DNA of 64,000 nt, taken from an uncultured Chloroflexia bacterium. Its GTDB lineage: Bacteria; Chloroflexota; UBA6077; JACCZL01. The stretch is from the NCBI GenBank assembly GCA_963765765.1, contig CAVXYC010000018.1, positions 139,002 to 203,001 on the forward strand, read 5' to 3'. Shown here piece after piece: positions 22,769-35,970 of this stretch (positions are counted from its first letter, which is position 1; the number at the start of each line of letters is the position of its first letter). Under the pieces are notes generated by a model. The model had not been told where the DNA came from. It did not search any database and saw only the letters and a list, made by a program, of their open reading frames with translations. The position numbers and the translations under genes are program-made.

Positions 22769-24019
22769 TTACGGCGACGTGACTTTGTAGATTCCGCCGG
22801 CAAGTGACAGCAGATACACTTCGCCGGCTTCGTCCTCGCCAAACGAGCTGATCTGATGGTCAGTATCCGCAAGCAGTCCGGACGTCCACTGGCCCGAGTT
22901 GTCACGACGGAGCATCCAGAACCGACCAGAGCAAAAATCTCCGAACAGATATGTGCCCTGGAGCGCAGGAGACTGGGCTCCCCGATACACGTAGCCGCCA
23001 GTTACCGAGCAATCTCCATCGGCGTGTGAATACTCCGCGATTGGGAGAATGAAGCCATCCGTTGAACAGCTTGCGTTCGCCGGATAGCAGTGCGAGCCCT
23101 CTGTGACGTTCCAACCGTAGTTCTCGCCGCCGGTGCTCGTGGCCGGTTGGAGATCGATCTCCTCATAGTCTCCCTGACCAACGTCCGCGATGTAGATCTC
23201 GTGCGTCAAGCGATCGAAGCTGAATCGCCACGGGTTACGCAGACCGTATGCCCACACCTGGCCGCCCTCCCCGCCGCGATCCGCGAACGGATTGCCTGGC
23301 GGGATCGCGTACGGGAGCCCTGGATCCGCACCGTTCACGTCGATGCGCAGTATTTTTGCGAGCATGGCCTGGGTCTTCTGCCCGTTACGATCTGGGTCTC
23401 CGGCGGCGCCGCCGTCTCCAGTACCGATATACAGGTATCCATCAGGCCCAAACGCAAGCATGCCGCCATTGTGGTTGTCGCGCGTGTCTGGAATCGCAAA
23501 CAGTATCGAACCGCTGTTGGGGTCAGCCACATTGGGGTCAGCGGACATGATGTATCGCGCTACAGTGTTGGCCTTATCGGTCGCCGTGTAATAGATGAAG
23601 AACTGGCCGTTGTTTGCGAAATTCGGGTGGAATGCAAGTCCCAACAAACCCTGTTCCGGTCCGGACGTTGTGATCAGCCCACGAACGTCAAGAAATGGCG
23701 TTGCCAACGTCTCTCCGTCCTGGACGATGCGGATTGTGCCGCCCCGTTCCACGACAAACACCCGGCCGCTGCCATCCCCAGCGTGCGTGAGGTAAACGGG
23801 CTGACGAAAGCCTCGCCCGAGCTCAACCAGGGATGTCTGAACCCCGGCAGAGGCGGCACCTCTTCCAGTTGGAACACTGATCGTGCTGGTCTGAGCCGAA
23901 GGCCGAGCTCCCGCACGACCGGGAATGACTCCGCAAGCCATGATGACAACGGCGATCATTGAAATGAGGGCGAGGATCCGCGTTGCCTGCCGCCGACTCT
24001 CTGGAGCTAACCGATTCAT
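22769..24019 (-). CDS. PQQ-dependent glucose/sorbosone dehydrogenase family
   Basis: GLLGLAFHP, NHNGG, GLRNPWRFSFD, SFGEDEAGE. Confidence 0.9.
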   Translation of the reverse strand: MNRLAPESRRQATRILALISMIAVVIMACGVIPGRAGARPSAQTSTISVPTGRGAASAGVQTSLVELGRGFRQPVYLTHAGDGSGRVFVVERGGTIRIVQDGETLATPFLDVRGLITTSGPEQGLLGLAFHPNFANNGQFFIYYTATDKANTVARYIMSADPNVADPNSGSILFAIPDTRDNHNGGMLAFGPDGYLYIGTGDGGAAGDPDRNGQKTQAMLAKILRIDVNGADPGLPYAIPPGNPFADRGGEGGQVWAYGLRNPWRFSFDRLTHEIYIADVGQGDYEEIDLQPATSTGGENYGWNVTEGSHCYPANASCSTDGFILPIAEYSHADGDCSVTGGYVYRGAQSPALQGTYLFGDFCSGRFWMLRRDNSGQWTSGLLADTDHQISSFGEDEAGEVYLLSLAGGIYKVTSP

Positions 24020-24058
24020 GGAGTACTTACAGCATATACAGGTCGGGCTCAGCTCCAG

Positions 24059-24270
24059 CTAGAACGAGCCCGCGCCGCCACCCACGAATGACGGCCACGT
24101 CCCGCATGCATCCGTCACCGTGAACCGCACCGTCGTCGCCACTCCCCGGAGGAAAACAGCGATTCCGACCCGGCACCATTGCTTTGACGCATGCGCGTTG
24201 CACCTTCCAGCAGCGTGTTCGGTTCGGGGGCGAGCGTAGGGTTCACAAGGCCCCTGAGCTGAGTCCGACG
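24059..24270 (-). pseudogene. Orphan C-terminal domain fragment
   Basis: Ends TVRFTVTDACGTWPSFVGGGAGSF; no clear start. Confidence 0.4.
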
Positions 24271-24321
24271 CCGCTGGCTGATATATCCTGGCTTTGCATT
24301 CGCACGAGGACTGTTGCCCCA

Positions 24322-24697
24322 ATGGAACGAATTTTCTTCATAATTGGATCCCTTCTGGCGTTCCTGGGCGTGGCGGCCGGTGCGTTTGGCGCACACGGCT
24401 TACGTGGACGTGTCTCGCCTGAGCTGATCGACGTATTCGAGACGGCCGCGCGCTACCATATCTATCACGCGCTGGGGCTCCTAGCCGTGGCTTGGGCAGT
24501 CTCGCGCTGGCCCGGCACGGCAACCACGGCCGCTGGATGGCTGTTCTTCAGCCGGCGTGGTGCTCTTCTCCGGCAGCCTCTATTTGATGACCTTCACCGG
24601 AATGCGCTGGCTCGGCGCGATCACCCCGCTCGGCGGAGTAGCCTTTCTGGCTGGTTGGGCCGCGTTGGCCTGGGCCGCCTGGCGCGGAACTGCATAG
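24322..24697 (+). CDS. DUF423 (YgdD) membrane protein, frameshifted
   Basis: [34 protein letters not shown]. Confidence 0.9.
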
Positions 24698-24742
24698 GTA
24701 CTCCACTAATTCGTCCTTTGCGTCCCTGCGGTCCCTTTAATC

Positions 24743-27700
24743 TCACCGGAAACTCTTCGCCGGCGGGATGGCGGGCAGGCGAGCTTTGGCCGCTTCTTCT
24801 CGGGGATCGTTACCTGGGCGGTCGCGTGACTCCAATGTCGGCAAGTCGCCCTCGCGTAGCGCTTCTATGTCGTCCACCAGGATGTTGATATTGCCGTCGC
24901 GGCACTGAAGGCGGCCGCGGACGATGACCATGGTCTCGCCACGAATGATCGGTCGCTTGCGCTCATAGAGCGGCGGACGAATGATCGCGTTGGCCATACC
25001 CGTCTCGTCCTCCACCAGCAAGAACGTGAACCCCTGAGCGGTGCCCGGTCGCTGGCGGCACACCACCAGCCCGGCCACGCGCACCGGCCAGCCATCCGGT
25101 AACGCCTCCAGCTCCTCCGCTGAGACAATGTCGGACGGCAGCCGTGCCCGCATGAGCCCCAGAGGATGGAGTGACGGCGAGAGCCCCAGCGTGTGGTAAT
25201 CCGCCACCATGCGCTCCCACGCGGTCATCTCTGGCCGCTCGATCATGTCCTGTTCCGTGCCGAAACCGAGAGGGAGGTTGCGGGGCGTGCCTGGGGAAGC
25301 TTCCTCGCCCCCTGGGAGAGGGTTGGGGTGAGAGAAGCTCGATTGCTTCTTTCGCGAGGCCCTCACCCCAGCCCTCTCCCAGGGGGCGAGGGAGCTCTTC
25401 CGACTTGGCTGCGGCTTCTTTTCCCGCCTCGATTGCTCCAGCAGCCCGTACTGCCACAACAGCTCACGACGGTTGAGCTGGAACGAGGGAAACGCGCCCA
25501 GCAGAATGAGGTTCTCCATGGCCGGGCGCTTGATGTCATACGCCGCGGTACGGTGAACGAAATCCTCGAGATCTCTGAACGGCCCGTTCCGCTCCCGTTC
25601 CGCTACGATCAACGCACTCATCTCTGAATTCAGGCTCCGCACCCGATCCAGCCCCAGGCGAACCGCGGACAACGTCGAGTGATGAGTCATGAGTGATGAG
25701 TCATGAGTACGGTCATCTTTACTCATCACCCATGACTCATCACTCGACACCTGGTATGTCACCGTGCACTTCACGCCGCTCCGATTGATGTCCACCGGCA
25801 GCACGTGCACGCCGTGGCGGCGGCCGTCACCCACCAGCACGTGCGGCGCGTAGAAACCCATGGGCTGGTTGTTGAACAGGGCGCAGAGATACTCCGCTGG
25901 GTAGTGGTAGCGCAGCCAGGCGGATTGGAACGCCAGGATGGCAAAGGCCGCCGCGTGGCTTTTGGGGAAGCCAAATTCGGAGAAGCCCACCAGCTTGTCG
26001 AACACCTTGGTGGCGGTGGCTTCGTCCACATCGCGCTGTATGGCACCGTTCAGGAACTCCTCACGGAACGCCTGCATCGCTTCGGCAGAGCGCCGTCGGC
26101 TCATCGCTCTACGCAGGCCATCCGCTTGCCCTGAGCTGAAACCGGCCAACTCCTCGGCCACCTGCATCACTTGGTCCTGGAAGAGCACCACGCCCAGGGT
26201 GTCGCGCAGCACCTCCTTTAGAGAAGGGTGGTCCACCTCGTAATCCGTGGCGCCCTGCCGCTGCCGCTCACGCTGGCGGACGTAGGGATTTACCGCGCCC
26301 CCCACGATGGGCCCGGGCCGAACGATGGCCACCTCGATAGCCAGGTCATCCAGGTTGCGCGGCTGGGTGCGCGGCAGCATCTGAATCTGCGCACGACTCT
26401 CTATCTGAAACAGCCCCACGGTATCGCCCGCGCAGATCTGGTCATAGATCTTGGGGTCGTCGTAATCGATCCGAGTGAGATCCTCCACTCGTCCCGTGTG
26501 TTGCCAGATGAGCTCCAGGCATTCCTCCACCAGTGAGAGCATGCCCAGCGCCAGGAAGTCCACCTTGATGAAACGCGCGTCATCGCACGAATCTTTGTCC
26601 CACTGGCAGATGTAGCGACCCTCCATGGCCGCCGGCTGCACGGGCACCAGCTCGATAATCGGGCGCGATGAGATGATCATCCCGCCCACGTGCTGACTCA
26701 TGTGGCGCGGAAAGCCGGCAATCTGCCGGGCCAGCTCAATGAGGTGACGCCAGATGGGTACGTGCACCAGGTCCTTGAGATCCGGCAGCCGCTCCATCTC
26801 CTGCTCCACGGTAGCCGCGGAGCCCCACTCGCTCAGCTTGGCCAGCTTGTCCAACGTGGGCGCCGGCAAGCCCAGCACCTTGCCCAGATCCCGCACGGCG
26901 CTGCGAATGTGATACGTGGCAAAGCTGCACACCAGCGCCGCGTGGTCCTTACCGTAGTGCTCGTACACCCGCAGGATGAGCTGCTCCCGAATGTCTCGCG
27001 CAAAGTCGAGATCGATATCCGGGACGGAGTGCATCGCATCGTTGAGAAAACGCCCTAGAAACAGATTGTTCTTGACCGGATCCACCTGAGAGAGGCCAAT
27101 CAGGTAACAGACGATGGAGCTCACCGAAGAGCCGCGTCCCCGCCCGCAAGGCAGATTTGATTTGCCGCGCGCGGTATTGGATCCACCGCGGACGTCATTG
27201 GCCACTTCTCTGGCCATCTGCAGCAGATCGCGATACACGAGGAAAAACCCGGACAGCCCGTGGCGCTCAATAAGCCCCAGCTCCTCACGCAGCCGCCCCA
27301 CCGCGTCAACTCGTCCCGATGATCCTTCCGGATATTTCTCCTCCAGCGCCGCCCAGCAGTACTCACTCAACACCGCGTCTGCATCCGTGGCCATATCCTG
27401 CAGCGCGCCGATATTGGTGCCCGGAGCTTCATCAGAGGAGGCGCTCCCTCGCCCTTTGGGAGAGGGTTGGGGTGAGGGCCCTACGGTGGGGGATATCGAG
27501 CTTCCCTCACCCCAACCCTCTCCCAGGGGGCGAGGGAGACGCCTCCCCACCCCAGCCCTCCCCGTGCGCGGGGAGGGGGCCGGATTCTCCAGATTTCTCT
27601 GTCACAGCCCCCTCCCGGAGCAAATTTTCTCCATATCCGGCCCCCTCCCCGCGCACGGGGAGGGCTGGGGTGGGGTCGTCCCCTCCGTCGCATCAGTCCC

Positions 27701-28713
27701 CTGAGTCCCAGAGGCCCCATACACCCCGCCCGGCCGCACATCCCTCCGAAACTCCGGAAACCGATACCCGAGATCCTCAGTCAGATCAAACTCGCTGCAA
27801 CGCTCGGCAATCTCGCGGGTAGATTGAATGGCCTGAGGCAAATCGTGGAACCGTGCCGCCATCTCCGCCGGGGTCTGCAGAAAGAACTCACTGTTTGGTC
27901 GACGGAGCTGATGGGAGCCTTCCAATGTAGAGCGATGCTTGATGGCCACCATGGCGTCCTGCAGCCGGTGTCGGGCGCGCTCGTGATAGTGCACGTTGCC
28001 CGTGGCCACGATGTCCACATTCAGTCGCTCAGCCAGCTCCACCAGGCGCAGCACGCGACGCTCATCGCCCTTCACCAGATGACGCTGCAGCTCCAGATAC
28101 AGCGCGTGCCCGCCAAACAGATCGCGCAGCCAGCGACCGGCCGCTTCCGCCTCCGTCAGCCGCCCTTCATCGATAAGCTGGCACAGTAGCCCGTGTCGAC
28201 AGCCAGACAGCGCGATCAATCCGCGCGTGCGCCCCTCCAGCGCCGCCGCCGGCAGACACGGCGCCTTCGCCCCTGGGAGAGGGTTGGTGAGGGCTCTTTC
28301 CACCGAACGAGGCTGATTGCTCTTCCCTCACGCCAACCCGCTCCCAGGGCGAGCATGGAGCCTGACACATTGCGACGCTCCGGGTCGCACGCATCCGTCA
28401 GCAGCCGACACAGGTTGGCGTAGCCCTCGGGATTCTCGGCCAGCAGCGTCAGGTGGCAGCGTCGACCGGATACGTCAAGCGTCAGCTCCGCCCCGGTGAT
28501 CGGCTGGATCTCCACAATCTTTGCGTACTGGGCAAAGGCCATGGCGCCGGCAAGGTTGTCATGGTCGGTAATCGCCAGCGCCCGGTAGTCGAATTCGCAG
28601 GCGCTATTCATCAGCTCCTCGATCTGCGACGCGCCGTCCAGAAACGAGTACGCCGTGTGGAGATGCAGCTCTACATAGTGATGAGTAGTGAGTGATGAGT
28701 GATGAGTCACCAT
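24743..28713 (-). CDS. dnaE2: Error-prone DNA polymerase DnaE2, interrupted by repeat inserts, a frameshift and one in-frame TGA
   Basis: PHP ELHLHTAYSFLDGAS/ITDHD; GRGSS, PDIDLD, HVGG, FGFPKSHAAAFA, NNQPMGFY, RQRPGTAQG, C-terminal KSFR. Confidence 0.92.
25300..25397. repeat. CCCTCACCCC..CCCTCTCCC inverted pair, in frame within dnaE2
   Basis: Translates SLAPWERAGVRA...SHPNPLPGGE. Confidence 0.85.
25677..25746. repeat. Heptamer (TGATGAG) inverted tandem repeat, in frame within dnaE2
   Basis: Translates SDESWVMS..THDSSLMTHHS. Confidence 0.85.
27400..27750. repeat. Composite repeat insert between PHP and polymerase domains
   Basis: Two inverted pairs (~27443-27538, ~27542-27678) plus GTCCC-containing 9-mer units. 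Confidence 0.8.
28262..28360. repeat. GGGAGAGGG family inverted pair inside the PHP domain
   Basis: Same family as the 25300 and 27443 copies. Confidence 0.75.
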
Positions 28714-28772
28714 CGGCAAGGATCTCTACTCATTACTCATGACTCATTACTCATGACCCATTACTCATCACT
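28678..28772. repeat. TGATGAG heptamer inverted repeat spanning the dnaE2 start
   Basis: GTGATGAG runs facing CTCATTA/CTCATGA runs. Confidence 0.85.
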
Positions 28773-28778
28773 GCGTCT

Positions 28779-29036
28779 TTAGCGCTGGGCGTACCACTGG
28801 CCGTCCACCAGGTCTTTGTAGATCTCCAGGCGCTTTCCGCCTTCCAGCAGCACGCCAAAATACAGCCGGCTCACCGGCCGATTTCGCCACCACTCGTCAT
28901 CAATGCGCCAGCGCTCCAGCACTTCAGCCACTCGGCGCCGGCTTCGCTGCCAGGTCACCGTTATCGGCGCGCCATCCTGATGCTCCACGCGAATTGCGTT
29001 CGGCTCGTTCAGAAATTGCAGTCGACCAGTGCCCAG
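28779..29036 (-). CDS. DUF6504-like small protein between imuB and dnaE2
   Basis: VLERWRIDDEWWR..RLYF..IYKDLVDGQW; start uncertain. Confidence 0.75.
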   Translation of the reverse strand: MGTGRLQFLNEPNAIRVEHQDGAPITVTWQRSRRRVAEVLERWRIDDEWWRNRPVSRLYFGVLLEGGKRLEIYKDLVDGQWYAQR

Positions 29037-30384
29037 CGACGCTCGGGAAAGCGTGACCACGGCTCCACCTCCATGATTCGATACAGTTGTCCGGCCGGGG
29101 CATCGCCAAAGCGCATGCGTAGCTGGCGCGCGGCCTCGGCCACACCCGTAAGCTGCCGGCGACGACCGCTCCACAGCTCCTCCTGCATCACGCTGGCGCC
29201 CTGCTTCAGCACCAGCGTTACTCCTAGCTCTGCCACCGCGCCCTCCGGATGCGCATTGCCCAGCCGCCCACGCAGATGCTTCAGCGCCGTAGCAGCGCTG
29301 GCCACCGGCTCGCGCAGCGTGAAGGTGCGTTCCCAGGACGAGTGAGCAGAGGTGAGAGGTCGGAGGTCAGAGGTCAGGAATCGTCTCCGATCACCTCGCT
29401 CATCACTGACCTCTGACCTCTGACCTCTGACCTCTCGTCCTTCGCCCCACGCCCGCAATGTGATCTGCTCCACAGAACGGCCTCGCGTCACCGGCAGACT
29501 GAAGGCGCGCACCAGCACACGCTCTAGCCCGGCCAGCAGCCCTTGAGAGCTCGCCACGGCGGATGGAAAGCGCAGCCGCGCCTCGGCCTTCAGCGCGCGA
29601 GCTCGGGGCTGGAACGGACGATCGTCCTGCCCGCACGCCAGCCTCCAGGCACGGCCGCCGGCCAGCGCCAAACTGTGCCTGTACCGGCCCCAGCGGCAAC
29701 CCTGAGAGGGCGCCCAGCGTATGGAGCCCCTGCTGCTGAAAGCTGCGCGCAAGGTCCGGCGTGACCGGCAGCAGCACCGCCGGCAACGGCGCCAGAAACG
29801 ACTTCTCCGCCCTCGCGGGCACAATGCTCACCTGCCCCGGGCTGTGCCTGCCGCGCCGCCGCCTCCGCCACAAACTTCCCCCGTGCCACCCCCAGCCGCG
29901 CCCGGAACATCGAGGGCACGGAGCGGAGGATGATCTGGAGATCGCTTTGCGAAGTGAAGAGTGAAGAGTGAAGAGTGAAAGACGGCAGTGTGGGTGGCTC
30001 ATTCTCCACTCTTAACGCTTCACTCTTCACTTCCTTCCCCAGCGCCTCCACATCACAGAACACCACCCCCAGCCCGGCCGGCTCCACCGGGCCAATGACC
30101 TTCTCCAGGTCATCCAGCACCTGCTCAAACCGCTGGGCGTAGAGCACCGGATCAGGCGGCACCATCACCAGCTCACGACACAGCGCCAGCGCCTCCCGAG
30201 CCGGCATGCCCGGGCGCACACCCACGGCCGCGGCCTCAGGAGAGCACTCCAGAATCTCGGGCCGTTGCCCCACGCCGGAGGTGAGCGCCAACGGCGCGCC
30301 GTCCTGCGCGGCATTACGCATCGTCTCCACACGCAGCGCAAAATGCGGCAGCAGGAGGCAGCCGATCATTTGCCTGGCCATCAC
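29009..30384 (-). CDS. imuB: ImuB / Y-family polymerase-like protein, two frameshifts
   Basis: ECSPEAAAVGVRPGM..EALALC, GVARGKFVA, LGALSGLP..QAQFG, EPWSRFPERR; adjacent to dnaE2. Confidence 0.85.
29342..29435. repeat. TCAGAGG heptamer inverted repeat, in frame within imuB
   Basis: Translates EVRGQRSEVS..LTSDLRPLTS. Confidence 0.85.
29951..30030. repeat. GTGAAGA heptamer inverted repeat, in frame within imuB
   Basis: Translates EVKSEALRVEN..FTLHSSLFTS. Confidence 0.85.
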
Positions 30385-30404
30385 TCGTCCCCTCCAGCCG
30401 GGCC

Positions 30405-30566
30405 CTGGGGCCGCGGGCGTCCTACCCGTCCCCGGCTTTCCGGTGGGACGGGCGTCCCTGCCCGTCGCGGCCTGGAGGGCCGCCCCTCGAACACAGCGAG
30501 CGGTGACGGGGAGTACTGGAGGCGGGCTCGACGCCCGCGACGGGCAGGGACGCCCATCCCACCGGT
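30405..30566. repeat. GGGACGGGCGTCCCTGCCCGTC REP-like cluster
   Basis: Three to four palindromic units in alternating orientation. Confidence 0.75.
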
Positions 30567-30934
30567 GGAAAAGGAACGCTCCCCGGCCCTGCGGTACAGC
30601 CGTCCATCACTCGTCTCCCCGGAGCGTTCGTCCCGGCCGCCATGGACCCGCGCGAAGACCGCACCCGCACGCCGGCGGCAGAACGCCGCCCCGCGCTGAG
30701 CTGGGTGTCCACCGCGGCGTACAGTCCGCTGGCAGAAAGCCCCAGCGCCAGGCCGCGCATCACCGCGCCGGCCATCGTGATGCCGTCATCCGCCGCGATG
30801 AGGCTGAGCGCCAGGCCCAATGCCAGCGCCATCGGAGCCGCCCACCGCGCGCTCAGCCCCGTACCCTTGGCCACCTCCACCAGCCCAATGATCACCGGTA
30901 CCACCAGCACACCGAAGAATTCCGTTGTATCCAC
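30422..30934 (-). CDS. Phage holin-like protein (C-terminal extension reads through repeats)
   Basis: VPVIIGLVEVAK..G...RWA....LALG..GLSASGLY. Confidence 0.75.
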   Translation of the reverse strand: MDTTEFFGVLVVPVIIGLVEVAKGTGLSARWAAPMALALGLALSLIAADDGITMAGAVMRGLALGLSASGLYAAVDTQLSAGRRSAAGVRVRSSRGSMAAGTNAPGRRVMDGCTAGPGSVPFPPVGWASLPVAGVEPASSTPRHRSLCSRGGPPGRDGQGRPSHRKAGDG

Positions 30935-30952
30935 AACCGTCCCCCTGACGGG

Positions 30953-31050
30953 AGTTAAGAGTGAAAAGTTAAGAGTGAAATTGAGATTGTCGAAATCAAA
31001 TCAGCTTCCCCAGTGCCATTCTTAACTCTTAACTTTTTCACTCTTAACTC
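30953..31050. repeat. GTTAAGA/GTGAAAA heptamer inverted repeat, intergenic
   Basis: GAGTTAAGAGTGAAAAGTTAAGAGT and its exact reverse complement. Confidence 0.9.
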
Positions 31051-31057
31051 AACCTCC

Positions 31058-32878
31058 TCACGCCTCCAACAACCTCAAGCTGCCTCTCAACTGCGTTCCC
31101 ATCCGTTGGCTCATCTTGGCCCCCTTCTCCTCGTAGTCCAGCAGCCACACATTCCGACTCACCCCGTCCAGATCCACATACGTCAGCGGCCCCGCCTGAC
31201 CGGCAATGCCCCACAACGCCGTGCTGAGCTGCGCGCTTGTCTGCGAGCTATTGCTCCCATCCAGCAGCACCATCGGCATCTGCCCGCTCCCCTCGATGAG
31301 GCAATCGAACTCCCACACGCGCTTGACGCCCGGCGCCGGCCGACAGCGCATCTCGAGCGAGAAGAACCGCAGCGGCGTGGCCCCGCCAGCAGGGCCCGTC
31401 AGGATCACTCGGAACGCGATGAGCTTGCCCGCCACCGCCGCGCCAAACGTGAACGTCGCCGTGGTGCTACTCGTCGTGCTGTTCGTGCCCAGGCTCGTCC
31501 ACGCGCCGGTGTCCTCCAGGCGGTACTGCACCTGCACGCTCTGACCCGCCAGCAGCGCCGCGTGGTTGATCGTGACGCTCCGAAACACTTTCGTCACGCC
31601 CGGCAGCCGCGCATCGATCAGCCCCGTCTCCAGCGTCGCCGCCGCCTGATGGAGGTCGCTCCGAACCCTGAGCATGAACCAGTTGGTCGTACTGAGCTGG
31701 GCAATCACGTAGAGATCGCCACCAAACCACGCCAGGCTCTGCGCGCGACCATTGCCGGCCATCGCGGCCACGGCCACCGGCTCGCTCCATCCGACTGATC
31801 CGCCTGAGGCGGAGGCCGCTCCGTCGTAGCGCTTCAGGCCCACGCCGGCCCCGTCCGAGAACGCCATCCAGAAGCCCCCGCGACCGCTTGCCGTGGCGCC
31901 CAGCGCTCCGCCCGCGTACGGGATCGTCAGTGGATGCGGGATGGGCTCAACGTCGCCATTCCGCCAGCGGTACACCACCGGGTAGGCCGATGAGCCGCGC
32001 TGGCCCACCAGGTAGCTGGCATCTCCCAGCACGCTCCCACCCAGCAGGCTCACGCCATCGATCGTCGTCGTAAACGCCCATTGCTCGGAGGCCGCGTTGT
32101 CCTTCAGGGTGTACACGCCCGTCCGCGCGCCGCTGCCCATCTGTGTCCCGCAGAACACCGCCGTTGTCCCAATCACCTGCGGCTGCACGCGACAGCTCGG
32201 CTCGTTGAGCTGGTAGCGCAAGGCGGAGAGCGTTGCCCCGTCCGTGTAATAGACTCGGCACCCGTCCGGCGCCTCACCCACCAGGTACAGGTAGGCCACC
32301 GAGCCCCGATAGAACACGCCCATGCTGTAACACGCGGTGACCGGCGGCGGCAGCGTCACAAAGACGTCGGTGTAGGTCGCTCCATCCCATCTGGCAATGC
32401 TGCCGTTGCCCGTTTTGCCAACGTAGAGCTTGCCCTGATACTCGGCAAAGCTCGCCGCTCGACCGCCCGTGGCCAGCGTAAACGGCGCCCCCAGCGACGC
32501 CCCATCCCAGCTCACCACCGCGCCGCCGTTGGCCCCGTGGTAGTACTTGCCGAGTGCCGCGATGGATGGTCCGGGCGAGAGGTCATTGACGCCGGCGTTC
32601 ACCTGGGCGGCATGCGGCCCCTGCCGAGCCGCGCCGGGCTCGGTCCATGGATCCAGGCCCGGACCAAACCGGTATCGCCCGGGCTCGTCCTCATCGTGCC
32701 GGGTGAAGCCCTCACCGCCGCTCCAATCGTCGATGAGCACAGCCATTTCGTTCCGCAGGTCCCCGTAGCCGCGATCCCCCGAAGACGTCTTCGGCGCAAA
32801 CGGGTCGGCCAACGTCCGCCGATAGCTCTGCACATCCAGCAGCAGCCCCTGCCCGGCCAGCATCACGTGATAAGTCAT
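31058..32878 (-). CDS. Putative phage tail/nozzle-like beta-rich structural protein
   Basis: ~606 aa, propeller-like WDG/YxG repeats, located between capsid and holin. Confidence 0.55.
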   Translation of the reverse strand: MTYHVMLAGQGLLLDVQSYRRTLADPFAPKTSSGDRGYGDLRNEMAVLIDDWSGGEGFTRHDEDEPGRYRFGPGLDPWTEPGAARQGPHAAQVNAGVNDLSPGPSIAALGKYYHGANGGAVVSWDGASLGAPFTLATGGRAASFAEYQGKLYVGKTGNGSIARWDGATYTDVFVTLPPPVTACYSMGVFYRGSVAYLYLVGEAPDGCRVYYTDGATLSALRYQLNEPSCRVQPQVIGTTAVFCGTQMGSGARTGVYTLKDNAASEQWAFTTTIDGVSLLGGSVLGDASYLVGQRGSSAYPVVYRWRNGDVEPIPHPLTIPYAGGALGATASGRGGFWMAFSDGAGVGLKRYDGAASASGGSVGWSEPVAVAAMAGNGRAQSLAWFGGDLYVIAQLSTTNWFMLRVRSDLHQAAATLETGLIDARLPGVTKVFRSVTINHAALLAGQSVQVQYRLEDTGAWTSLGTNSTTSSTTATFTFGAAVAGKLIAFRVILTGPAGGATPLRFFSLEMRCRPAPGVKRVWEFDCLIEGSGQMPMVLLDGSNSSQTSAQLSTALWGIAGQAGPLTYVDLDGVSRNVWLLDYEEKGAKMSQRMGTQLRGSLRLLEA

Positions 32879-32882
32879 AGCG

Positions 32883-32945
32883 AGAGTGATGAGTAATGAG
32901 TCATGGTGACGAGTAGATGAGTGATGAGTCATAAGTAATGAGTGG
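32883..32945. repeat. TGATGAG heptamer run
   Basis: GTGATGAGTAATGAGTCATG... Confidence 0.8.
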
Positions 32946-33765
32946 GGAGGGATGCGTCCGCGTCCCGCTGCTGACTACTCATTCCTTTCTGGGCATTTCC
33001 GAAGGCCGCCATCAGGCCGGGGTCGCGCAGGAGACTGAACTGCCAGAACGCCTCGTCCGGGCTATCCAGGATGAAGTACACCGCGCCTTCCAGGCCGGGC
33101 GTCTCCGCCAGATCGCGGCATACGCGATCGAACGGCACGCGGTTGAACTCGGTCACCAGCAGCGGCCGCTGGATGCCCGCCATCTCCAGCATCTCTCGGC
33201 AGCGTCGGTGCAGCCCCCAGCCATCCGCGTAGGCGTGCACGTCCACCACGTCATAGAGCGGAATCACCGGCTCCAGCTCACGCCAGTACTGGATGGCGCG
33301 CTCGCTGTTCTCGCCCGTCCAGCCGCTCCACGGAGCCGGCAGATGCAGGCGATCCTGCGGTCGCAGCGCGCGATAGACCTCCGCAAACGCGCTGAGCCAG
33401 GTGCGATGACGAGCGTAATCGTCGTGCCCGTTCTCCGCCGCGCCCGGCCAGTTCATCTCATTGGCCGGGATCACCTCACCGGTGCTGGACTCAAAGAACA
33501 CCGTGGCGCGGCGAGCACATTCCACCGCCCAGGCAGCCGGGTCGCGTTGCGGAATATCGCGCGCGTAGCAGCGCAGCAGTGGCACGCTGCCGCGCGCTCG
33601 AAGTCGGGCCGCCAGCGTGCTGTGCTGGCCCAGCCCCTCCCACTCCTGTATGTCATGCGCCAGAAACAGCGTGTGCCGCGGCCGCAGCCGCGCCAACGCC
33701 CCCAGCGTCGGCCGATCATACGCCCCGGCCACATTAGGGGTTTGAATACCTAAGAGATGCTGCAT
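32929..33765 (-). CDS. Clan GH-A-like glycoside hydrolase
   Basis: ANEMN acid/base-like, DVHAY, VTEFN nucleophile-like motifs. Confidence 0.6.
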   Translation of the reverse strand: MQHLLGIQTPNVAGAYDRPTLGALARLRPRHTLFLAHDIQEWEGLGQHSTLAARLRARGSVPLLRCYARDIPQRDPAAWAVECARRATVFFESSTGEVIPANEMNWPGAAENGHDDYARHRTWLSAFAEVYRALRPQDRLHLPAPWSGWTGENSERAIQYWRELEPVIPLYDVVDVHAYADGWGLHRRCREMLEMAGIQRPLLVTEFNRVPFDRVCRDLAETPGLEGAVYFILDSPDEAFWQFSLLRDPGLMAAFGNAQKGMSSQQRDADASLPTHYL

Positions 33766-33780
33766 AAATCCCTTCCAGAC

Positions 33781-33879
33781 GGCCCCCTCCCCGCGCACGG
33801 GGAGGCATGGGTGGGGTCGTCCCTCGCTCGCTTATAGCTAGGAGACCCCCTCAGTCCCCCCATGCGCGGGGGGAAGGCG
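33781..33879. repeat. CCCCCTCCCCGCGCACGGGGAG inverted pair, intergenic
   Basis: Nearly identical to 27638-27680. Confidence 0.8.
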
Positions 33880-33890
33880 GTTATTGAGCG

Positions 33891-34757
33891 CTAGGCGTTA
33901 TTGATTCCTTTGATTCGGGCCAGGGCGGAGTCGCGCAGGATGGCGATGCTCACGTACCAGCGGATGCGCACGCGGGTGGCGTCCTTGGTCTGGAGCTGGC
34001 CCACGTCCAGCACCTCCAGGCCGCCGTTCTGCAGACCCACCACGCCGTCACCTTCATCGAAGTGGATGGCGTAGATGCTGGAGGTGGCGTTGTCCGTGCC
34101 CTGCGTCTCCGCATCAGGCTGGAAATCGCTAATCTCCACGGGCACGCCGTCGTACAGCATGACCTGTCGACCAAACGCGTTCTCACCGCGCTCCACGTAG
34201 TGCGCGCTGGCCTGCAGCAAGCTCTTCAGCTTGCGACGCGTCCGTCGACTCATCAACAGCAGCGTGGGCTTGCCGCCCAGAATCAGGTCCATCACCTGAT
34301 CCAGCAGCGCCAGCGTCAGCGGCCCGCCGTTGGTCGCCACGCTGATCGTCTGACCCGCGGCCACCTGCTTGCGAATGCCGTCGAACGCGTTCGCATCCAC
34401 GCCGGTATCGCCGGTGATGAACGTGTCCTCAAACTTGCGGGCCACGCTCTTGGCCTTGAGCTGAGTCTGGATAGCCTGCTGATTCTGGAGACTGGAGCGC
34501 GTGCGCTGGATGAAGTTATCCACGTCCGCGTCGCCACCCAGAATCGCCAGACTGGCCGTCTTGTTGGAGAACGTGCTGGTGGCCTCCGTCCAGGTGCCAT
34601 CCACCGCGTAGAACGCCGCGCCACCCAGCACATTCTCCTGGTTGTATTTGTAAAACTGGACACAATGTGCTCGTCCTGACGTGGACCGACCGAAACGAGG
34701 CGGCCTCGAAGGGGGTCTGAGAGGCCTTGGGACAGCCTCAACGCTCTGGCAAATCAC
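33891..34757 (-). CDS. Phage major capsid protein with atypical N-terminus
   Basis: YNQE, ILGGDADVDNF, FITGD..FDG, LLMSRR, GVP, KDATRVRIRWY; RBS GAGGAG 5 nt before GTG. Confidence 0.85.
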   Translation of the reverse strand: MICQSVEAVPRPLRPPSRPPRFGRSTSGRAHCVQFYKYNQENVLGGAAFYAVDGTWTEATSTFSNKTASLAILGGDADVDNFIQRTRSSLQNQQAIQTQLKAKSVARKFEDTFITGDTGVDANAFDGIRKQVAAGQTISVATNGGPLTLALLDQVMDLILGGKPTLLLMSRRTRRKLKSLLQASAHYVERGENAFGRQVMLYDGVPVEISDFQPDAETQGTDNATSSIYAIHFDEGDGVVGLQNGGLEVLDVGQLQTKDATRVRIRWYVSIAILRDSALARIKGINNA

Positions 34758-34784
34758 TCCGACTCCTCACACTCTTCATCACTT

Positions 34785-34802
34785 ATAGAACTTATGTTCT
34801 AT
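34785..34802. promoter_or_regulatory. LexA (SOS) box, Gram-positive/Chloroflexi type
   Basis: ATAGAAC-TTAT-GTTCTAT perfect 7-bp arms, overlapping a TATAAG -10-like hexamer on the minus strand. Confidence 0.8.
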
Positions 34803-34835
34803 TTCTAGAGTAGTCCTTAGTGGTCCCTTGATGCG

Positions 34836-35160
34836 TCATGAGGCGCACCAATCCGGGCATTCTGGCGACGGAAATAACCCCTGTCGCAGATCGGAAGTTA
34901 TGGGTAGTGAGGCGGGTGGCTGGCGCCGCGACGCTAGCGCCGGTTCTCGAGGAAGCTCGATCAAGCCGCGACGAAGAGCGACCGCGAGGGCCGCTTGCGC
35001 CGTGTGGCAACCCAGTCGCTTCATTGCGGAGCGGACGTGCGTCCGAACCGTGTGCTCGCTCAGGACGAGCTGGTCAGCGATCGCCCGTCGCGACTTGCCA
35101 AGAGCCAGGAGGCTGAGCACTTCTCGCTCACGTGGCCGCAGGTACGGCTCGTTGTTACCG
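34836..35160 (-). CDS. LuxR-type HTH protein (start unclear)
   Basis: LRPREREVLSLLALGKSRRAIADQLVLSEHTVRTHV. Confidence 0.8.
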
Positions 35161-35187
35161 GCTCGACCCAGAATGATTCCAGGTTCC

Positions 35188-35970
35188 TCAGGGCAACTCG
35201 AGGACGGGCTGGAAGTGCTTTTGCTCGCACCACGAGCTGCCTAAGAGCTGAGAGGTCCGCTCGTGCAGAATCTCTTCGTGAGCCCCTGCTGGCATGATGC
35301 AGAAAAGCCTGCGTGAGCCGCGACAAAACTGGACAGCCCAGACTCGATTGACATTCAGTCGTTCACGGATCTCCGCAATCCGACGGCGAGCTTGCACCTC
35401 GGCCGATGCCCTCCGGTCGACATGCTGATACACCACGAGACTTTGGCCACGCTGCAGGAACGGCAGTAGCTCATCGAAGAACGCGTATTTAGGCCCGCGC
35501 GCGCGGAACGGCCCCGTGGAACCGACCTGGAGCCCGTTATCGGGATCGACGAACACAAGCTCACACCCCTGAGTGGCCGCCATAGCGTCCTGGACCCACG
35601 TGTGCCTATAAATCCGGCGCTCGCCAGGCACCATATCCCGAAATGAGAGTTGTTCGGCGAAGTATCGAGTCGAGCTCGGGAAGAGATTAAGCTCGTGGAT
35701 CGCAGAGACACGACGCTCTCCTCGCGTAATCAGTGTCGCGAGTCGCTCGTACAAGTCAGGGTCGCAACTCCTGAACCGAGCATTTAAGAGATTCTCACCG
35801 AGCAGGTAGGAAACATGCTTCCCGTCATCATTGTGGGACTCGTCGGGCACCAAGTACCAAACGATCCCCAAATCGAGAAAGGGCTCCGCTCGCGGCTCGA
35901 CCCCGCAGAGCCACCGAAGAAGTCCGAACTTTCCGAAGTCGCCCACGTCACCCGCGTATCGGTCCTGCAC
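35188..35970 (-). CDS. Conserved hypothetical protein, possible methyltransferase-like fold
   Basis: MQDRYAGDVGDFGKFGLLR, VFVDPDNG, VVYQH. Confidence 0.65.
   Translation of the reverse strand: MQDRYAGDVGDFGKFGLLRWLCGVEPRAEPFLDLGIVWYLVPDESHNDDGKHVSYLLGENLLNARFRSCDPDLYERLATLITRGERRVSAIHELNLFPSSTRYFAEQLSFRDMVPGERRIYRHTWVQDAMAATQGCELVFVDPDNGLQVGSTGPFRARGPKYAFFDELLPFLQRGQSLVVYQHVDRRASAEVQARRRIAEIRERLNVNRVWAVQFCRGSRRLFCIMPAGAHEEILHERTSQLLGSSWCEQKHFQPVLELP

What the first reader, a model, noticed from the sequence alone, without database searches (positions are those of the whole stretch)
24743..34802. Candidate SOS-controlled operon joining a minimal phage-particle module to the ImuB-DnaE2 mutasome
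Seen: seven co-oriented minus-strand genes follow a GAAC-N4-GTTC palindrome and RBS, in the order capsid, GH-A hydrolase, tail-like protein, holin, imuB, DUF6504-like, dnaE2. The spacers are short and filled with repeats. No terminase, portal, integrase, phage repressor or imuA is recognisable. Known: imuA-imuB-dnaE2 cassettes are LexA-regulated mutagenesis units, and GAAC-N4-GTTC is the LexA box of Bacillota, Actinomycetota and Dehalococcoides. Inference: virion and lysis genes occupy the space between the SOS box and imuB. This suggests a domesticated GTA-like, nanocompartment or lysis module co-induced with error-prone replication. I know of no description of this linkage.
Basis: partly seen in the sequence, partly recalled or inferred. 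Interest (0 to 1): 0.9.

Follow-up and report, generated by a model that had tools for sequence, protein, structure and literature searches.

The report
SOS-controlled phage-particle genes joined to mutasome
A soil Chloroflexota bacterium carries a cut-down copy of a phage-derived capsid, tail-tip and lysis gene set that its whole order keeps behind a DNA-damage switch; here it runs straight into error-prone DNA polymerase genes, which hints that lysis or DNA-carrying particles and mutagenesis are switched on together.

Summary
The seven minus-strand genes and the palindrome are real. Three of the genes are damaged: the capsid gene lacks its first ~43 codons, imuB has two +1 frameshifts, and dnaE2 is split into three ORFs by palindromic insertions.

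The palindrome TAGAAC-N4-GTTCTA is this organism's LexA operator. It also precedes lexA, recA and ruvC.

Relatives explain the locus. In this uncultured Chloroflexota order, about 20 of 39 species keep single copies of terminase, portal, adaptor, scaffold, capsid, a lysin, a P22-gp10-like tail nozzle and a holin. These genes follow host taxonomy and are under purifying selection. A LexA box precedes 15 of 18 structural loci, even where the set is scattered.

In 7 genomes the holin or nozzle runs straight into the mutasome genes, which then have no box of their own (0 of 7). All 8 unlinked cassettes have one.

The mutasome here is the known ImuA-less iPolY / ImuB-C / DnaE2 type.

Best reading: a decaying copy of a domesticated, SOS-driven, GTA-like particle and lysis system fused to a mutasome operon. 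Function is untested.

This scan has noted similar SOS-controlled capsid modules, and one mutasome fusion, in other Chloroflexota classes.

The parts
34786..34801 (.). LexA operator TAGAAC-N4-GTTCTA, a perfect 16-nt palindrome. It is followed by GAGGAG and the GTG start at 34757.
   Evidence: It is the only such site in the window. It is one of 4 perfect and 12 one-mismatch-or-better sites in the 6.49-Mb genome. Others sit directly upstream of lexA, recA, ruvC, a PolX-like gene and a Rad52/22-family gene. It is orthologous to the box upstream of the portal gene in the same-genus genome G001.
33891..34757 (-). Major capsid protein gene, 5'-truncated. Homology to relatives covers only 33894-34652. 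The first 35 codons of the ORF are unrelated sequence.
   Evidence: phrog_212 E 1.5e-62, covering profile positions 49-296 of 301. The alignment with 10 relatives lacks the first 43 columns. Sequence upstream of the junction is unrelated to G001 and G005. dN/dS is 0.09 against G001.
32929..33798 (-). Protein B, a candidate cell-wall or glycan hydrolase sitting in the module's 'lysin slot'.
   Evidence: No Pfam or PHROG hit. NEMN and TEFN motifs are conserved in 3 homologues. Weak GH10/GH53 fold matches come from a low-confidence model. The same slot holds an amidase endolysin in G020 (phrog_1493, E 8.4e-18) and a GDSL hydrolase in G015. dN/dS is 0.16.
31058..32932 (-). Podovirus-type tail hub or nozzle protein. 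The likely true start is the ATG at 32878.
   Evidence: AlphaFold pLDDT 82, pTM 0.70. Foldseek matches include Pa223 tail at E 1.2e-12, P22 gp10 at E 1.9e-12 with TM 0.63, Sf6, VP1, Pam1 and T7 gp12. Homologues occur in 20 of 39 genomes of the order, in most as one gene. dN/dS is 0.24.
30422..30934 (-). Holin. The conserved part is 30671-30934. The stop codon is lost and the ORF reads on into an inserted palindromic element.
   Evidence: phrog_1299 E 3.2e-15. In G001 the holin TGA abuts the imuB GTG-ATG start. Here TGA has become CGA, and about 216 nt are inserted, flanked by a duplicated GACGAGTGATGG. dN/dS is 0.09.
30440..30565 (.). Palindromic insertion between holin and imuB, with 31-nt arms that are 97% complementary.
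   Evidence: Inverted repeat I9. It is absent from G001.
29009..30384 (-). imuB-like inactive Y-family polymerase gene. It is interrupted by two +1 frameshifts near 29839 and 29662, and carries two heptamer-hairpin insertions at 29951-30033 and 29336-29447.
   Evidence: IMS domain E 2.3e-15. The gene reads in three frames against the intact 444-aa G001 protein. One low-depth soil-metagenome contig each at 29839 and 29662 lacks the extra base (run X5, table 4).
28779..29174 (-). DUF6504 protein, read as a standalone ImuB-C domain. The likely start is near 29099.
   Evidence: PF20114 E 0.0031, below the cut-off. It is conserved between imuB and dnaE2 in relatives. A profile-profile match to the C-terminus of full-length ImuB gives E 2.3e-4, probability 45%.
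24743..28719 (-). dnaE2, split into three ORFs (28216-28719, 27602-28303, 24743-27550) by inserted GC-rich palindromic elements.
   Evidence: PHP, DNA_pol3_alpha (E 3.6e-68), finger, HHH_6 and OB domains. There is a frameshift at about 28375-28225 and an in-frame TGA at 27602, which lies in the loop of a 41-nt perfect palindrome. G001 dnaE2 stays open for 945 aa up to its contig end.

Best explanation
The block is a decaying copy of a system that the whole order carries.

The system is a phage-derived gene set of podovirus type: large terminase, portal, adaptor, scaffold, major capsid protein, a wall hydrolase, a tail nozzle and a holin. It has no integrase, replication or repressor genes. It is inherited with the chromosome and placed behind the host's LexA operator. 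DNA damage would therefore switch on particle assembly and lysis, as in a gene transfer agent or a PBSX-like defective prophage.

In several lineages the last gene of this set (holin or nozzle) abuts the first gene of an SOS mutasome cassette. That cassette then has no LexA box of its own, so one LexA-controlled transcript would carry the particle, lysis and error-prone-polymerase genes.

In this window a deletion removed everything from just after the operator to capsid codon 43. That left operator, truncated capsid, hydrolase B, nozzle, holin, then imuB, ImuB-C (DUF6504) and dnaE2. Recent palindromic-element insertions and two frameshifts have interrupted dnaE2 and imuB.

This organism therefore probably makes no particles and has no working DnaE2 mutasome. 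It would still express B, the nozzle and the holin on SOS induction.

Shown: gene identities, operator identity, conservation, purifying selection, the fusion pattern and the breaks.

Inferred: LexA binding, co-transcription, particle formation and DNA packaging.
For: Operator:
- The genome has 12 sites with at most one mismatch. Among them are the sites directly upstream of lexA, recA, ruvC, a PolX-like gene and a Rad52/22-family gene.
- A box lies upstream of recA in 23 of 30 loci across the order.

Module:
- The order portal, adaptor, scaffold, capsid, variable genes, nozzle, holin was mapped in G005 and in many relatives.
- Terminase-like genes occur in 21 of 39 genomes, capsid in 20 of 39 and nozzle in 20 of 39, in most as one gene.
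- Capsid was found in 0 of 27 genomes of the other orders of the class.
- Flanking genes are ordinary host genes.

LexA box next to the module:
- 15 of 18 loci that hold capsid or nozzle genes and have their 5' end on the contig carry a box. This includes pieces scattered to other contigs.
- Background density is 0.0025 sites per 300 nt.

Selection and descent:
- dN/dS between G000 and G001 is 0.09 to 0.24 for the phage genes.
- Capsid mean column identity is 77%.
- The capsid tree follows host families: 5 changes, the minimum possible, against a shuffled mean of 8.4.

Fusion to the mutasome:
- The nozzle or holin lies next to mutasome genes in G000, G001, G005, G009, G002, G023 and G029, and within 5 kb in G016.
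- Junctions are tight: about 0 nt in G001 and G029, 19 nt in G005.
- 0 of 7 fused loci have a box in front of the first mutasome gene. 8 of 8 unlinked cassettes have one.
- Two different cassette types, one with ImuA and one with ImuB-C, are fused in the same way.

Decay in this window.
Against: - There is no expression, LexA-binding or particle data for any member. All genomes are uncultured MAGs.
- No receptor-binding, tail-needle or small-terminase genes were identified.
- Lone terminase loci carry no box in 4 of 4 cases: G000, G005, G011 and G002.
- G019, G020, one G007 locus, and IMG/VR contigs with the same module show no box in the sequence available.
- The fused state is found in only about 8 of 20 genomes that carry the module. 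The linked ImuB-C type cassettes are not monophyletic on the DnaE2 tree, so the history is not resolved.
- The window's own deletion junction (34652-34786) and the holin-imuB insertion are not bridged by any independent contig.
- The two imuB frameshifts could be assembly errors. One other population lacks both.
- The correlation of capsid and RecA distances is weak: Pearson 0.42, Spearman -0.06.
Confidence: 0.6

Rival explanations
1. The link is positional only. The phage-derived module and the mutasome are neighbours, but the mutasome genes are transcribed from their own unrecognised promoter. In that case there is no shared SOS transcript.
For: - No transcript data exist.
- In G016 a 4.6-kb gap and a separate LexA box lie in front of imuB.
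- In G005 dnaE2 keeps a weaker box of its own.
- In the window about 286 nt containing a strong hairpin now separate holin and imuB.
- Hairpin repeats fill most spacers and could stop transcription.
Against: - Junctions are about 0 nt in G001 and G029 and 19 nt in G005.
- 0 of 7 fused loci have a box in front of the first mutasome gene, against 8 of 8 unlinked loci.
- No promoter-like site was found on the minus strand in 24600-35300, and terminator-like sites are not above chance, 6 found against 4.7 expected.
Confidence: 0.2
2. The block is a cryptic prophage remnant with no present function. It was kept next to the mutasome by descent alone and is being lost piece by piece.
For: - There is a graded series of 5' deletions: terminase-first, portal-first, adaptor-first, truncated capsid, nozzle only.
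- Genus g15 has lost the module entirely, 0 of 9 genomes.
- G001 has internal TGA codons in its portal and terminase genes.
- This window has lost its portal gene and the capsid N-terminus.
Against: - dN/dS is 0.09 to 0.24.
- Capsid ORFs are intact in all 19 full matches.
- Capsid conservation is close to that of RecA: mean p-distance 0.32 against 0.21.
- The operator is retained in front of whatever gene now comes first, and on scattered pieces.
- Terminase, capsid and nozzle tend to occur together across genomes.
Confidence: 0.12
3. The block is a mobile phage satellite or island, of the capsid-forming PICI kind, that carries a mutasome as cargo and moves between these bacteria.
For: - Flanking genes differ between families.
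- The region has higher GC, 0.65-0.67 against about 0.60.
- IMG/VR classifies related contigs as viral. One of them has an IS21-like transposase pair next to the module.
- Family f1 needs two changes on the capsid tree.
Against: - No integrase lies on the contig.
- No tRNA gene lies within 15 kb on either side.
- No replication or repressor genes were found in the mapped loci.
- Most genomes carry a single copy.
- The capsid tree follows host families.
- The set is split over several loci in G002, G014, G015, G016 and G023, which a mobile unit would not survive.
Confidence: 0.06
4. The arrangement is an assembly or binning artefact of a metagenome-assembled genome.
For: - Genome contamination is estimated at 6.85%.
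- The locus is rich in repeats.
- No independent contig bridges the two window-specific junctions.
Against: - The same gene order occurs in G001 at 66-91% protein identity, and in independent MAGs from other studies.
- The block lies inside a 203-kb contig.
Confidence: 0.02

Closest known systems
Gene transfer agents of the RcGTA and CcGTA type in Alphaproteobacteria (PMC5026251 and PMC9632790; search listings and abstract openings seen only)
   Same: - A phage-derived head, tail and lysis gene set without replication or integration genes.
- It is inherited vertically in a clade and is under purifying selection.
- It is under host regulation.
- It is sometimes split over several loci.
- The abstract opening of PMC9632790 ties GTAs to DNA repair.
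   Different: - The tail here is of podovirus type (adaptor plus P22-gp10-like nozzle), not siphovirus type.
- The host is Chloroflexota.
- LexA boxes sit directly at the structural-gene promoters. That RcGTA instead uses CtrA, GafA and quorum-sensing control is recalled, not checked.
- Packaging of host DNA and transfer are untested here.
- Physical fusion to a mutasome operon is not reported for GTAs in the literature I searched.
PBSX-type SOS-inducible defective prophages of Bacillus (recalled; no paper read)
   Same: - A defective, chromosomally fixed phage-like element.
- It is induced by DNA damage.
- It lyses the producer cell through a holin and lysin.
   Different: - PBSX is myovirus-like and is controlled by its own repressor rather than by LexA boxes at the late genes (recalled).
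- It has no link to a mutasome.
ImuA-less mutasome variant: inactive Y-family polymerase, standalone ImuB-C and DnaE2, presumably with RecA (Timinskas and Venclovas 2019, PMC6511836 section 17 read; 'DnaE2X' group in Timinskas et al. 2026, PMC12926913 section 20 read)
   Same: - The gene order is Y-family homologue, small beta-rich protein, dnaE2.
- No imuA is present in the genome.
- DUF6504 matches the ImuB C-terminus in a profile-profile comparison, E 2.3e-4.
- The first catalytic aspartate motif of Y-family polymerases is not visible at the N-terminus. This was read by eye and not tested.
   Different: - The papers describe these operons as often including lexA. Section 17 of the 2019 paper does not mention phage genes. 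In the 2026 paper the word 'phage' occurs twice, in neither case about DnaE2.
- Here the cassette has no operator of its own and sits behind phage structural and lysis genes.
- Here it is also interrupted by frameshifts and insertions.
Short-tailed phages with P22 gp10-type tail hubs and SU10-type capsid and adaptor
   Same: - Pfam SU10_MCP and SU10_adaptor hits.
- Nozzle fold matches to P22, Sf6, Pa223 and T7 tail complexes.
   Different: - The best cultured-phage capsid match is only 44% identical (Streptomyces phage Rowa).
- No tail needle, fibre or small terminase gene was recognised.
- There is no phage genome around the module.
LexA-regulated imuA-imuB-dnaE2 cassettes (introduction of PMC3919608, passages read)
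   Same: G005, G009 and G002 carry imuA (RecA-like, E 1.3e-8), imuB and dnaE2 in a row.
   Different: The LexA box is not in front of imuA. It lies upstream of the phage nozzle or portal gene.

Membership tests
LexA operator of Gram-positive / Chloroflexota type (GAAC-N4-GTTC) | A palindrome that is present upstream of lexA and recA in the same genome | tested here: met
   There are 12 sites with at most one mismatch in 6.49 Mb. They include the sites upstream of lexA, recA, ruvC, a PolX-like gene and a Rad52/22-family gene. A box lies upstream of recA in 23 of 30 loci of the order.
LexA operator of Gram-positive / Chloroflexota type (GAAC-N4-GTTC) | Binding by LexA and release on DNA damage | not testable with these tools
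   This needs a gel-shift assay or a reporter assay.
Gene transfer agent (viriform) | A phage-derived structural gene set that is conserved and inherited vertically in a host clade | tested here: met
   Capsid, nozzle and terminase genes are each in about 20 of 39 genomes, in all 7 families of the order. The capsid tree follows host families. dN/dS is 0.09-0.24.
Gene transfer agent (viriform) | No genes for its own replication, integration or lysogeny control | tested here: met
   Host genes flank the module in G005, G011, G013, G015 and the window. No tyrosine integrase lies on the contig. Small ORFs inside the modules were not all examined.
Gene transfer agent (viriform) | A complete head and packaging gene set in the organism | tested here: not met
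   In G000 no portal or scaffold gene was found, the capsid lacks 43 N-terminal residues, and the terminase-like gene has a frame break. The feature is met in relatives such as G029, G018 and G016.
Gene transfer agent (viriform) | Particles that package random host DNA, less than is needed to encode the particle, and deliver it to other cells | not testable with these tools
   No cultured member exists and no particle data are available.
ImuA-ImuB-DnaE2 mutasome cassette | DnaE2 with PHP, pol III alpha, finger, HHH and OB domains | tested here: inconclusive
   All domains are present, but the gene is split into three ORFs by a frameshift and an in-frame stop.
ImuA-ImuB-DnaE2 mutasome cassette | ImuA or ImuA' encoded in the cassette | tested here: not met
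   A tblastn search of the genome with G005 ImuA hit only recA.
ImuA-ImuB-DnaE2 mutasome cassette | A LexA box directly upstream of the cassette | tested here: not met
   The only box in the window is 4.4 kb upstream, in front of the capsid gene.
iPolY / standalone ImuB-C / DnaE2 variant (PMC6511836) | A Y-family homologue, then a standalone ImuB-C, then dnaE2, with no imuA in the genome | tested here: met
   DUF6504 against the ImuB C-terminus gives hhalign E 2.3e-4, probability 45%, which is moderate support. No imuA was found.
Podovirus tail hub / nozzle (P22 gp10-like) | A beta-propeller plus C-terminal beta domains that superpose on solved nozzle proteins | tested here: met
   Model pLDDT 82. 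P22 gp10 (8eap_D) matches at E 1.9e-12 with TM 0.63. Pa223, Sf6, VP1, Pam1 and T7 gp12 also match. There is no sequence-family hit.
Glycoside hydrolase clan A (protein B) | A (beta/alpha)8 barrel with catalytic Glu after strands 4 and 7 | tested here: inconclusive
   NEMN and TEFN motifs are conserved in 3 sequences. The model has pLDDT 57.7. The best Foldseek hits are GH10 and GH53 at E 6e-4 to 9e-4, TM 0.32-0.41.
Integrated prophage | Integrase, repressor, replication genes and attachment sites around the structural genes | tested here: not met
   Supported. Serine recombinases were not searched.
Encapsulin nanocompartment | An HK97-fold shell protein without portal or packaging genes, together with cargo proteins | tested here: not met
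   Orthologous loci carry portal, adaptor, terminase and nozzle genes.

The most novel reading that the evidence does not exclude
An entire order of uncultured soil Chloroflexota maintains a domesticated, podovirus-derived gene-transfer-agent-like system whose promoters are direct LexA targets. In several lineages its lysis end has become the front part of the SOS mutasome operon, with two different mutasome types. One damage-triggered transcript would then couple three things: release of DNA-filled particles (repair templates for kin), lysis of the producer cell, and error-prone polymerase production. Together with this scan's notes of similar modules in Dehalococcoidia and Anaerolineae, which I did not check, this would be a phylum-wide, previously undescribed arm of the SOS response.
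Probability: 0.35. Interest if true: 0.9.

Novelty: new variant of a known kind. Interest (0 to 1): 0.75.

Why it matters
- Gene transfer agents are known from few lineages, and their benefit to the host is debated. A clade-wide, LexA-wired, short-tailed particle system in Chloroflexota would add an independent origin.
- Such a system would have an unusually clear trigger, DNA damage.
- Its repeated fusion to the mutasome ties two ways of generating or repairing genetic variation to one switch.
- It also gives the ImuA-less DnaE2 systems a concrete regulatory context.
- The hypothesis is directly testable with a LexA binding assay and with expression of an intact relative's gene set.
- For annotation, it explains 'orphan' capsid, portal and nozzle genes in these MAGs that virus-prediction tools label as prophage. 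IMG/VR holds such contigs.

Tried and rejected
Searches and scans that gave nothing usable:
- The search for related loci with the nozzle alignment failed because no stretch was conserved enough. I used the capsid alignment instead.
- Sequencing runs: no RNA holder is listed. The best DNA holder has only 0.27 of the sampled words.
- Laying four soil runs gave short contigs. None bridges 30400 or 34650, and repeat regions attract contigs of other organisms. The one usable result is that single low-depth X5 contigs lack the extra bases at 29839 and 29662.
- Rfam found no family in 22000-38000. No tRNA gene lies in 15000-45000.
- The promoter and terminator scan found nothing on the minus strand above chance.
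- BLASTP of DUF6504 against full-length ImuB was not significant. Only the profile comparison gave a match.
- The fold of protein B was too uncertain to name a GH family.
- No holin was found between nozzle and imuA in G002 or G009.
- Earlier-findings look-ups by sequence for nozzle and capsid found no look-alikes.

Evidence weaker than hoped:
- RecA is too conserved to serve as a good yardstick for co-divergence. Spearman correlation with capsid distance is -0.06.
- IMG/VR contigs with the same module had no LexA box in the stretches held. Genes upstream of one of them are an IS21-like pair, not phage replication genes.

Ideas rejected:
- Nanocompartment, because relatives have portal, terminase and nozzle genes.
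- Tailocin, because capsid and portal genes are present.

Literature:
- Full-text searches found nothing that joins imuB and dnaE2 with capsid and prophage or with holin. The search for GTAs in Chloroflexi gave nothing relevant.
- The paper PMC1326238 (Erill 2006) is not held.
- Supplementary files were not consulted. The supplementary tables of PMC6511836 and PMC12926913 may list Chloroflexota operons.

Full report
**1. What is in the window**

On the minus strand between 34801 and 24743 lie the following features.

- A perfect 16-nt palindrome, TAGAACATAAGTTCTA as read on the minus strand, at 34786-34801. It is followed by GAGGAG and a GTG start codon.
- A major capsid protein ORF at 33891-34757 (phrog_212, E 1.5e-62; PF17236, E 7.2e-9).
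- Protein B at 32929-33798, with no family hit.
- A 624-aa protein at 31058-32932, with no family hit.
- A holin at 30422-30934 (phrog_1299, E 3.2e-15).
- A Y-family polymerase homologue, 'imuB' (IMS domain, E 2.3e-15).
- A small DUF6504-like ORF at 28779-29174 (E 0.0031, below the Pfam cut-off).
- dnaE2, with PHP, pol III alpha (E 3.6e-68), finger, HHH_6 and OB domains.

The flanks are ordinary host genes. A glucose/sorbosone dehydrogenase lies downstream and a LuxR/GerE-type regulator lies upstream. No tyrosine integrase lies on the contig. No tRNA gene or Rfam family lies nearby.

The spacers, and also the interior of imuB and dnaE2, hold hairpins built from 7-nt repeats and GC-rich palindromic elements.

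**2. The 624-aa protein and protein B**

With an alignment of 14 homologues, the 624-aa protein gave a confident model (pLDDT 82, pTM 0.70). It is a beta-propeller followed by beta-sandwich domains.

Its best PDB matches are the tail hub or nozzle proteins of short-tailed phages:
- Pseudomonas phage Pa223, E 1.2e-12
- P22 gp10, E 1.9e-12, TM 0.63
- Sf6, VP1 and Pam1
- T7 gp12

Protein B has conserved NEMN and TEFN motifs. Its model is poor (pLDDT 57.7), and the matches to GH10 and GH53 barrels are weak (E about 6e-4). 'GH clan A' stays a reasonable guess. In relatives the same slot holds an amidase endolysin (G020, phrog_1493, E 8.4e-18) or a GDSL hydrolase (G015). B is therefore most likely the module's wall-degrading enzyme.

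**3. Three of the seven genes are damaged**

- *Capsid.* The ORF matches relatives only from residue 36 of the ORF, which is column 44 of the alignment. The same-genus genome G001 and the same-family genome G005 start with MALTLAESAKLS and have a ribosome-binding site.
- *imuB.* It reads in three frames against the intact 444-aa G001 protein. There are single extra bases near 29839 (CCC against CC) and near 29662.
- *dnaE2.* It is three ORFs. There is a frameshift inside an inserted palindromic element at about 28375-28225. An in-frame TGA at 27602 lies in the loop of a second inserted element whose 41-nt arms are 100% complementary. G001 dnaE2 is open for 945 aa up to its contig end.
- *Holin.* The stop codon is lost. 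In G001 the holin TGA directly abuts the imuB GTG-ATG start. In the window TGA has become CGA, and about 216 nt containing a 31-nt-arm palindrome are inserted, flanked by a duplicated GACGAGTGATGG.

The near-perfect arms indicate recent insertions, which argues for real events rather than assembly errors.

The two imuB frameshifts are less certain. In one independent soil run (X5), single low-depth contigs lack both extra bases. At 29839 a low-depth X2 contig does not show the deletion; at 29662 the only other covering depth (X4) shows no deletion but cannot be assigned to this organism (table 4).

No contig in the four runs laid bridges the window-specific junctions near 34650 or 30400.

**4. 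The palindrome is the LexA operator of this organism**

GAAC-N4-GTTC alone occurs once in the window, against 0.94 expected by chance. That is not significant on its own.

The 16-nt form TAGAAC-N4-GTTCTA has only 4 perfect sites and 12 sites with at most one mismatch in the 6.49-Mb genome. By Pfam, the genes directly downstream of five of the other eleven sites are:
- LexA itself
- RecA
- RuvC, followed by ORFs whose N-termini look like RuvA and RuvB (read by eye; only RuvC was scanned)
- a PolX-type protein
- a Rad52/22-family protein

Across the order, 23 of 30 recA loci have the box upstream.

**5. Relatives show what the locus is**

The genome is a 33-contig MAG. Record titles of related loci name uncultured Chloroflexota MAGs. 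Two records carry other labels.

G005 is a 6-contig assembly of the same family. There one strand carries the following, in order:
- LexA box
- portal (PF05133, E 2.8e-29)
- SU10-type adaptor (E 3.3e-15)
- a 188-aa protein in the scaffold position
- capsid (phrog_212, E 9.4e-78)
- nozzle
- holin
- ImuA (RecA-like, E 1.3e-8)
- ImuB
- a 587-aa protein
- a weaker box
- dnaE2

The same module order, portal-adaptor-scaffold-capsid-(variable)-nozzle-holin, was mapped in G011, G013, G014, G015, G019, G020, G023, G029, G018, G004 and G016.

A terminase-like gene precedes the portal gene in G029, G018, G020, G016, G014 and G023. It lies elsewhere in the other genomes. Its identification rests on PF17289 at E 9.4e-6 and phrog_5909 at E 4e-6 to 7.5e-4.

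Distribution in the 39 species of the order:

| Gene | Genomes with it |
|---|---|
| Nozzle | 20 of 39 |
| Capsid | 20 of 39 (19 strong, all with open frames) |
| Terminase-like | 21 of 39 |

Most genomes show one gene of each (a few have two copies or split matches). All seven families are represented. Genus g15 has none of the three genes in 9 genomes.

None of the 27 genomes of the other orders of the class has the capsid gene. These counts include G006, which is unpublished. No claim depends on it.

**6. The module behaves like a host gene set, not a prophage**

- Flanking genes are host genes and differ between families: histidine kinases, an M20 peptidase, glycogen debranching enzyme, a CHAD protein and PolX.
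- In G002, G014, G015, G016 and G023 the set is split over two or three contigs.
- Capsid proteins are 61-82% identical across the order, with mean column identity 77%.
- Mean capsid p-distance is 0.32, against 0.21 for RecA.
- The capsid tree groups sequences by host family. It needs 5 label changes, the minimum possible, against a shuffled mean of 8.4; 0 of 200 shuffles were as low. Family f1 falls into two groups.
- Between G000 and G001 (dS 0.54-0.98), dN/dS is as follows:

| Gene | dN/dS |
|---|---|
| Capsid | 0.09 |
| Holin | 0.09 |
| B | 0.16 |
| Nozzle | 0.24 |
| imuB | 0.17-0.33 |
| DUF6504 | 0.37 |

- The closest cultured-phage capsid is only 44% identical.

**7. The module is wired to LexA throughout the order**

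I scanned for the box allowing at most 2 mismatches overall and at most 1 in the GAAC/GTTC core.

Of the loci that hold capsid or nozzle genes and have their 5' end on the contig, 15 of 18 have a box just upstream of whichever gene now comes first:
- terminase: G029, G018
- portal: G005, G015, G011, G013, G004, G002-C190, G016-C4
- adaptor or an unknown first ORF: G014, G023
- truncated capsid: this window
- nozzle: G009, G002-C16, G007

The three loci without a box are G020, G019 and G007-C45.

G001's portal contig has a perfect box 11 nt before the start codon. Its flanks align with those of the window's box, so the window's operator is orthologous.

Boxes also lie upstream of the terminase gene in G015, 55 nt away, and about 0.6-1.1 kb upstream of the terminase-portal loci in G014 and G023. 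Lone terminase genes have no box in 4 of 4 cases: G000, G005, G011 and G002.

Background density under the same criteria is 54 sites per 6.49 Mb, or 0.0025 per 300 nt.

A shared motif of the form GC-A/T-TA lies 10-15 nt upstream of the box in many loci. G009 and G002 have a TTGACA further upstream. This would fit a -10 element abutting the operator (read by eye and not tested).

**8. Fusion to the mutasome**

The nozzle or holin is followed directly by mutasome genes in seven genomes:
- G000
- G001
- G005 (holin to imuA, 19 nt)
- G009 and G002 (box, nozzle, hairpin spacer, imuA, imuB, dnaE2, with no holin)
- G023
- G029 (holin and imuB adjacent, then a contig end after DUF6504)

In G016 the two are 4.6 kb apart.

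None of the 7 directly fused loci has a box in front of the first mutasome gene. Each of the 8 unlinked cassettes with imuB in view (G011, G020, G030, G028, G021, G027, G007, G016) has one within about 120 nt. These genomes are related to one another, so the contrast should not be read as 15 independent trials.

Two different cassettes are fused. An ImuA type occurs in G005, G009 and G002, which form a separate long-branch DnaE2 clade. An ImuA-less type with DUF6504 occurs in G000, G001, G029 and G023. The fused DUF6504-type genes are not monophyletic. Either fusion is old, with later separations and one replacement in place, or it arose more than once.

**9. The mutasome type**

[quoted passage not shown] These occur in genomes without imuA, and RecA is presumed to take ImuA's place.
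- Timinskas et al. 2026 (PMC12926913, section 20) call the matching polymerase group DnaE2X.

The window fits this class. No imuA is present in the genome. A profile of seven DUF6504 proteins matches the last ~50 residues of full-length ImuB of the ImuA-type cassettes (hhalign E 2.3e-4, probability 45%). This is moderate support.

The 2026 paper's main text holds 'phage' twice, in neither case about DnaE2, and 'Chloroflex' not at all. Section 17 of the 2019 paper does not mention phage. I could not see the supplements.

**10. Reading**

The most economical account is a domesticated, SOS-driven particle and lysis system of podovirus ancestry. It resembles a GTA or a PBSX-type element. In some lineages its 3' end has merged with the SOS mutasome operon.

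In this genome the system is being lost:
- the portal and scaffold genes are gone
- the capsid gene is truncated
- the terminase-like gene on contig C33 has a frame break
- dnaE2 and imuB are interrupted

In this genome, B, the nozzle and the conserved part of the holin are still open reading frames. G001 shows early signs of the same decay, with internal TGA codons in its portal and terminase genes.

LexA binding, co-transcription, particle formation and DNA packaging are all inferred.

**11. Literature and earlier notes**

Full-text searches found no paper that joins imuB and dnaE2 with capsid and prophage, or with holin. They found no GTA reported in Chloroflexi. GTA background rests on search listings and abstract openings only.

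This scan has earlier, unchecked notes of LexA-box-controlled phage-derived capsid modules in Dehalococcoidia and Anaerolineae. One describes a capsid-tail-lysis string fused to imuB-dnaE2 in Dehalococcoidia. Several others describe hairpin repeats inside mutasome genes. I did not test those loci. By sequence they are not close to this one.

Noticed in passing
window 25298-25396, 27444-27538, 27545-27675, 28260-28359, 33780-33816, 30440-30565: A family of GC-rich palindromic elements is inserted inside dnaE2 and in spacers. One copy has 41-nt perfect arms and carries the stop codon that breaks dnaE2. Another sits between holin and imuB with what looks like a 12-nt target duplication. In G001 such elements lie in frame in imuB and dnaE2 and leave the ORFs open.
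   Followed up: partly
window 25674-25748, 28677-28772, 29336-29447, 29951-30033, 30946-31050, 32873-32943: There are hairpins built from tandem 7-nt units (the AGTGATG type and its complement) in nearly every spacer and inside imuB and dnaE2. They translate as 'THHSSL'-like peptides at several predicted gene starts. G002 and G009 have the same design with a different heptamer (GGTAGGC) between nozzle and imuA.
   Followed up: partly
G000 contigs C10:202693, C23:297004, C23:192801 (loci L058, L062, L061): The predicted LexA regulon of this genome includes a Rad52/22-family protein, a PolX-type protein and possibly an N6/N4 DNA methylase. Other boxes lie next to a glycosyltransferase / F420 ligase pair and an alpha-amylase.
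   Followed up: partly
L034:10963-12930 (G013): In G013 the gene that follows the holin region is a PolX family polymerase with a PHP domain. This is another repair polymerase placed downstream of the same phage-derived module.
   Followed up: no
G000 C33:16570-18202 and C17:122241-122877: Isolated terminase-like and adaptor-like genes lie on other contigs without LexA boxes. The terminase-like gene is 59-61% identical to relatives and has a frame break near 17910. The adaptor-like gene is 39% identical. They may be scattered remains of the same system.
   Followed up: partly
L069:6401-8718 (G015 contig C22): The terminase-like gene of G015 matches in two blocks separated by about 780 nt. This could be an insertion or a split gene.
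   Followed up: no
window 35188-35970: A 260-aa protein with no Pfam or PHROG hit lies just upstream of the locus. It has a 68%-identical paralogue on contig C1 at 212184-212960.
   Followed up: no
window 28000-34000: GC content is 0.65-0.67 across the module and imuB, against about 0.60 in the flanks. GC skew is strongly negative, reaching -0.18 at 30-32 kb.
   Followed up: no
L027:5526-8708 (G002 contig C16): A second pol III alpha-type gene lies about 2 kb upstream of the LexA box and nozzle gene in G002. It is 30% identical to DnaE2 and is probably dnaE1.
   Followed up: no
L112:218-2553 (IMG/VR contig): An IS21-like transposase and helper-ATPase pair, together with an HTH protein, lie divergently upstream of the terminase gene of a related module on a contig classed as viral.
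   Followed up: partly
window 24184-24888 (+): An ORF convergent with the 3' end of dnaE2 has an internal Met followed by a hydrophobic stretch, which suggests a small membrane protein. I judged this by eye and did not scan it.
   Followed up: no
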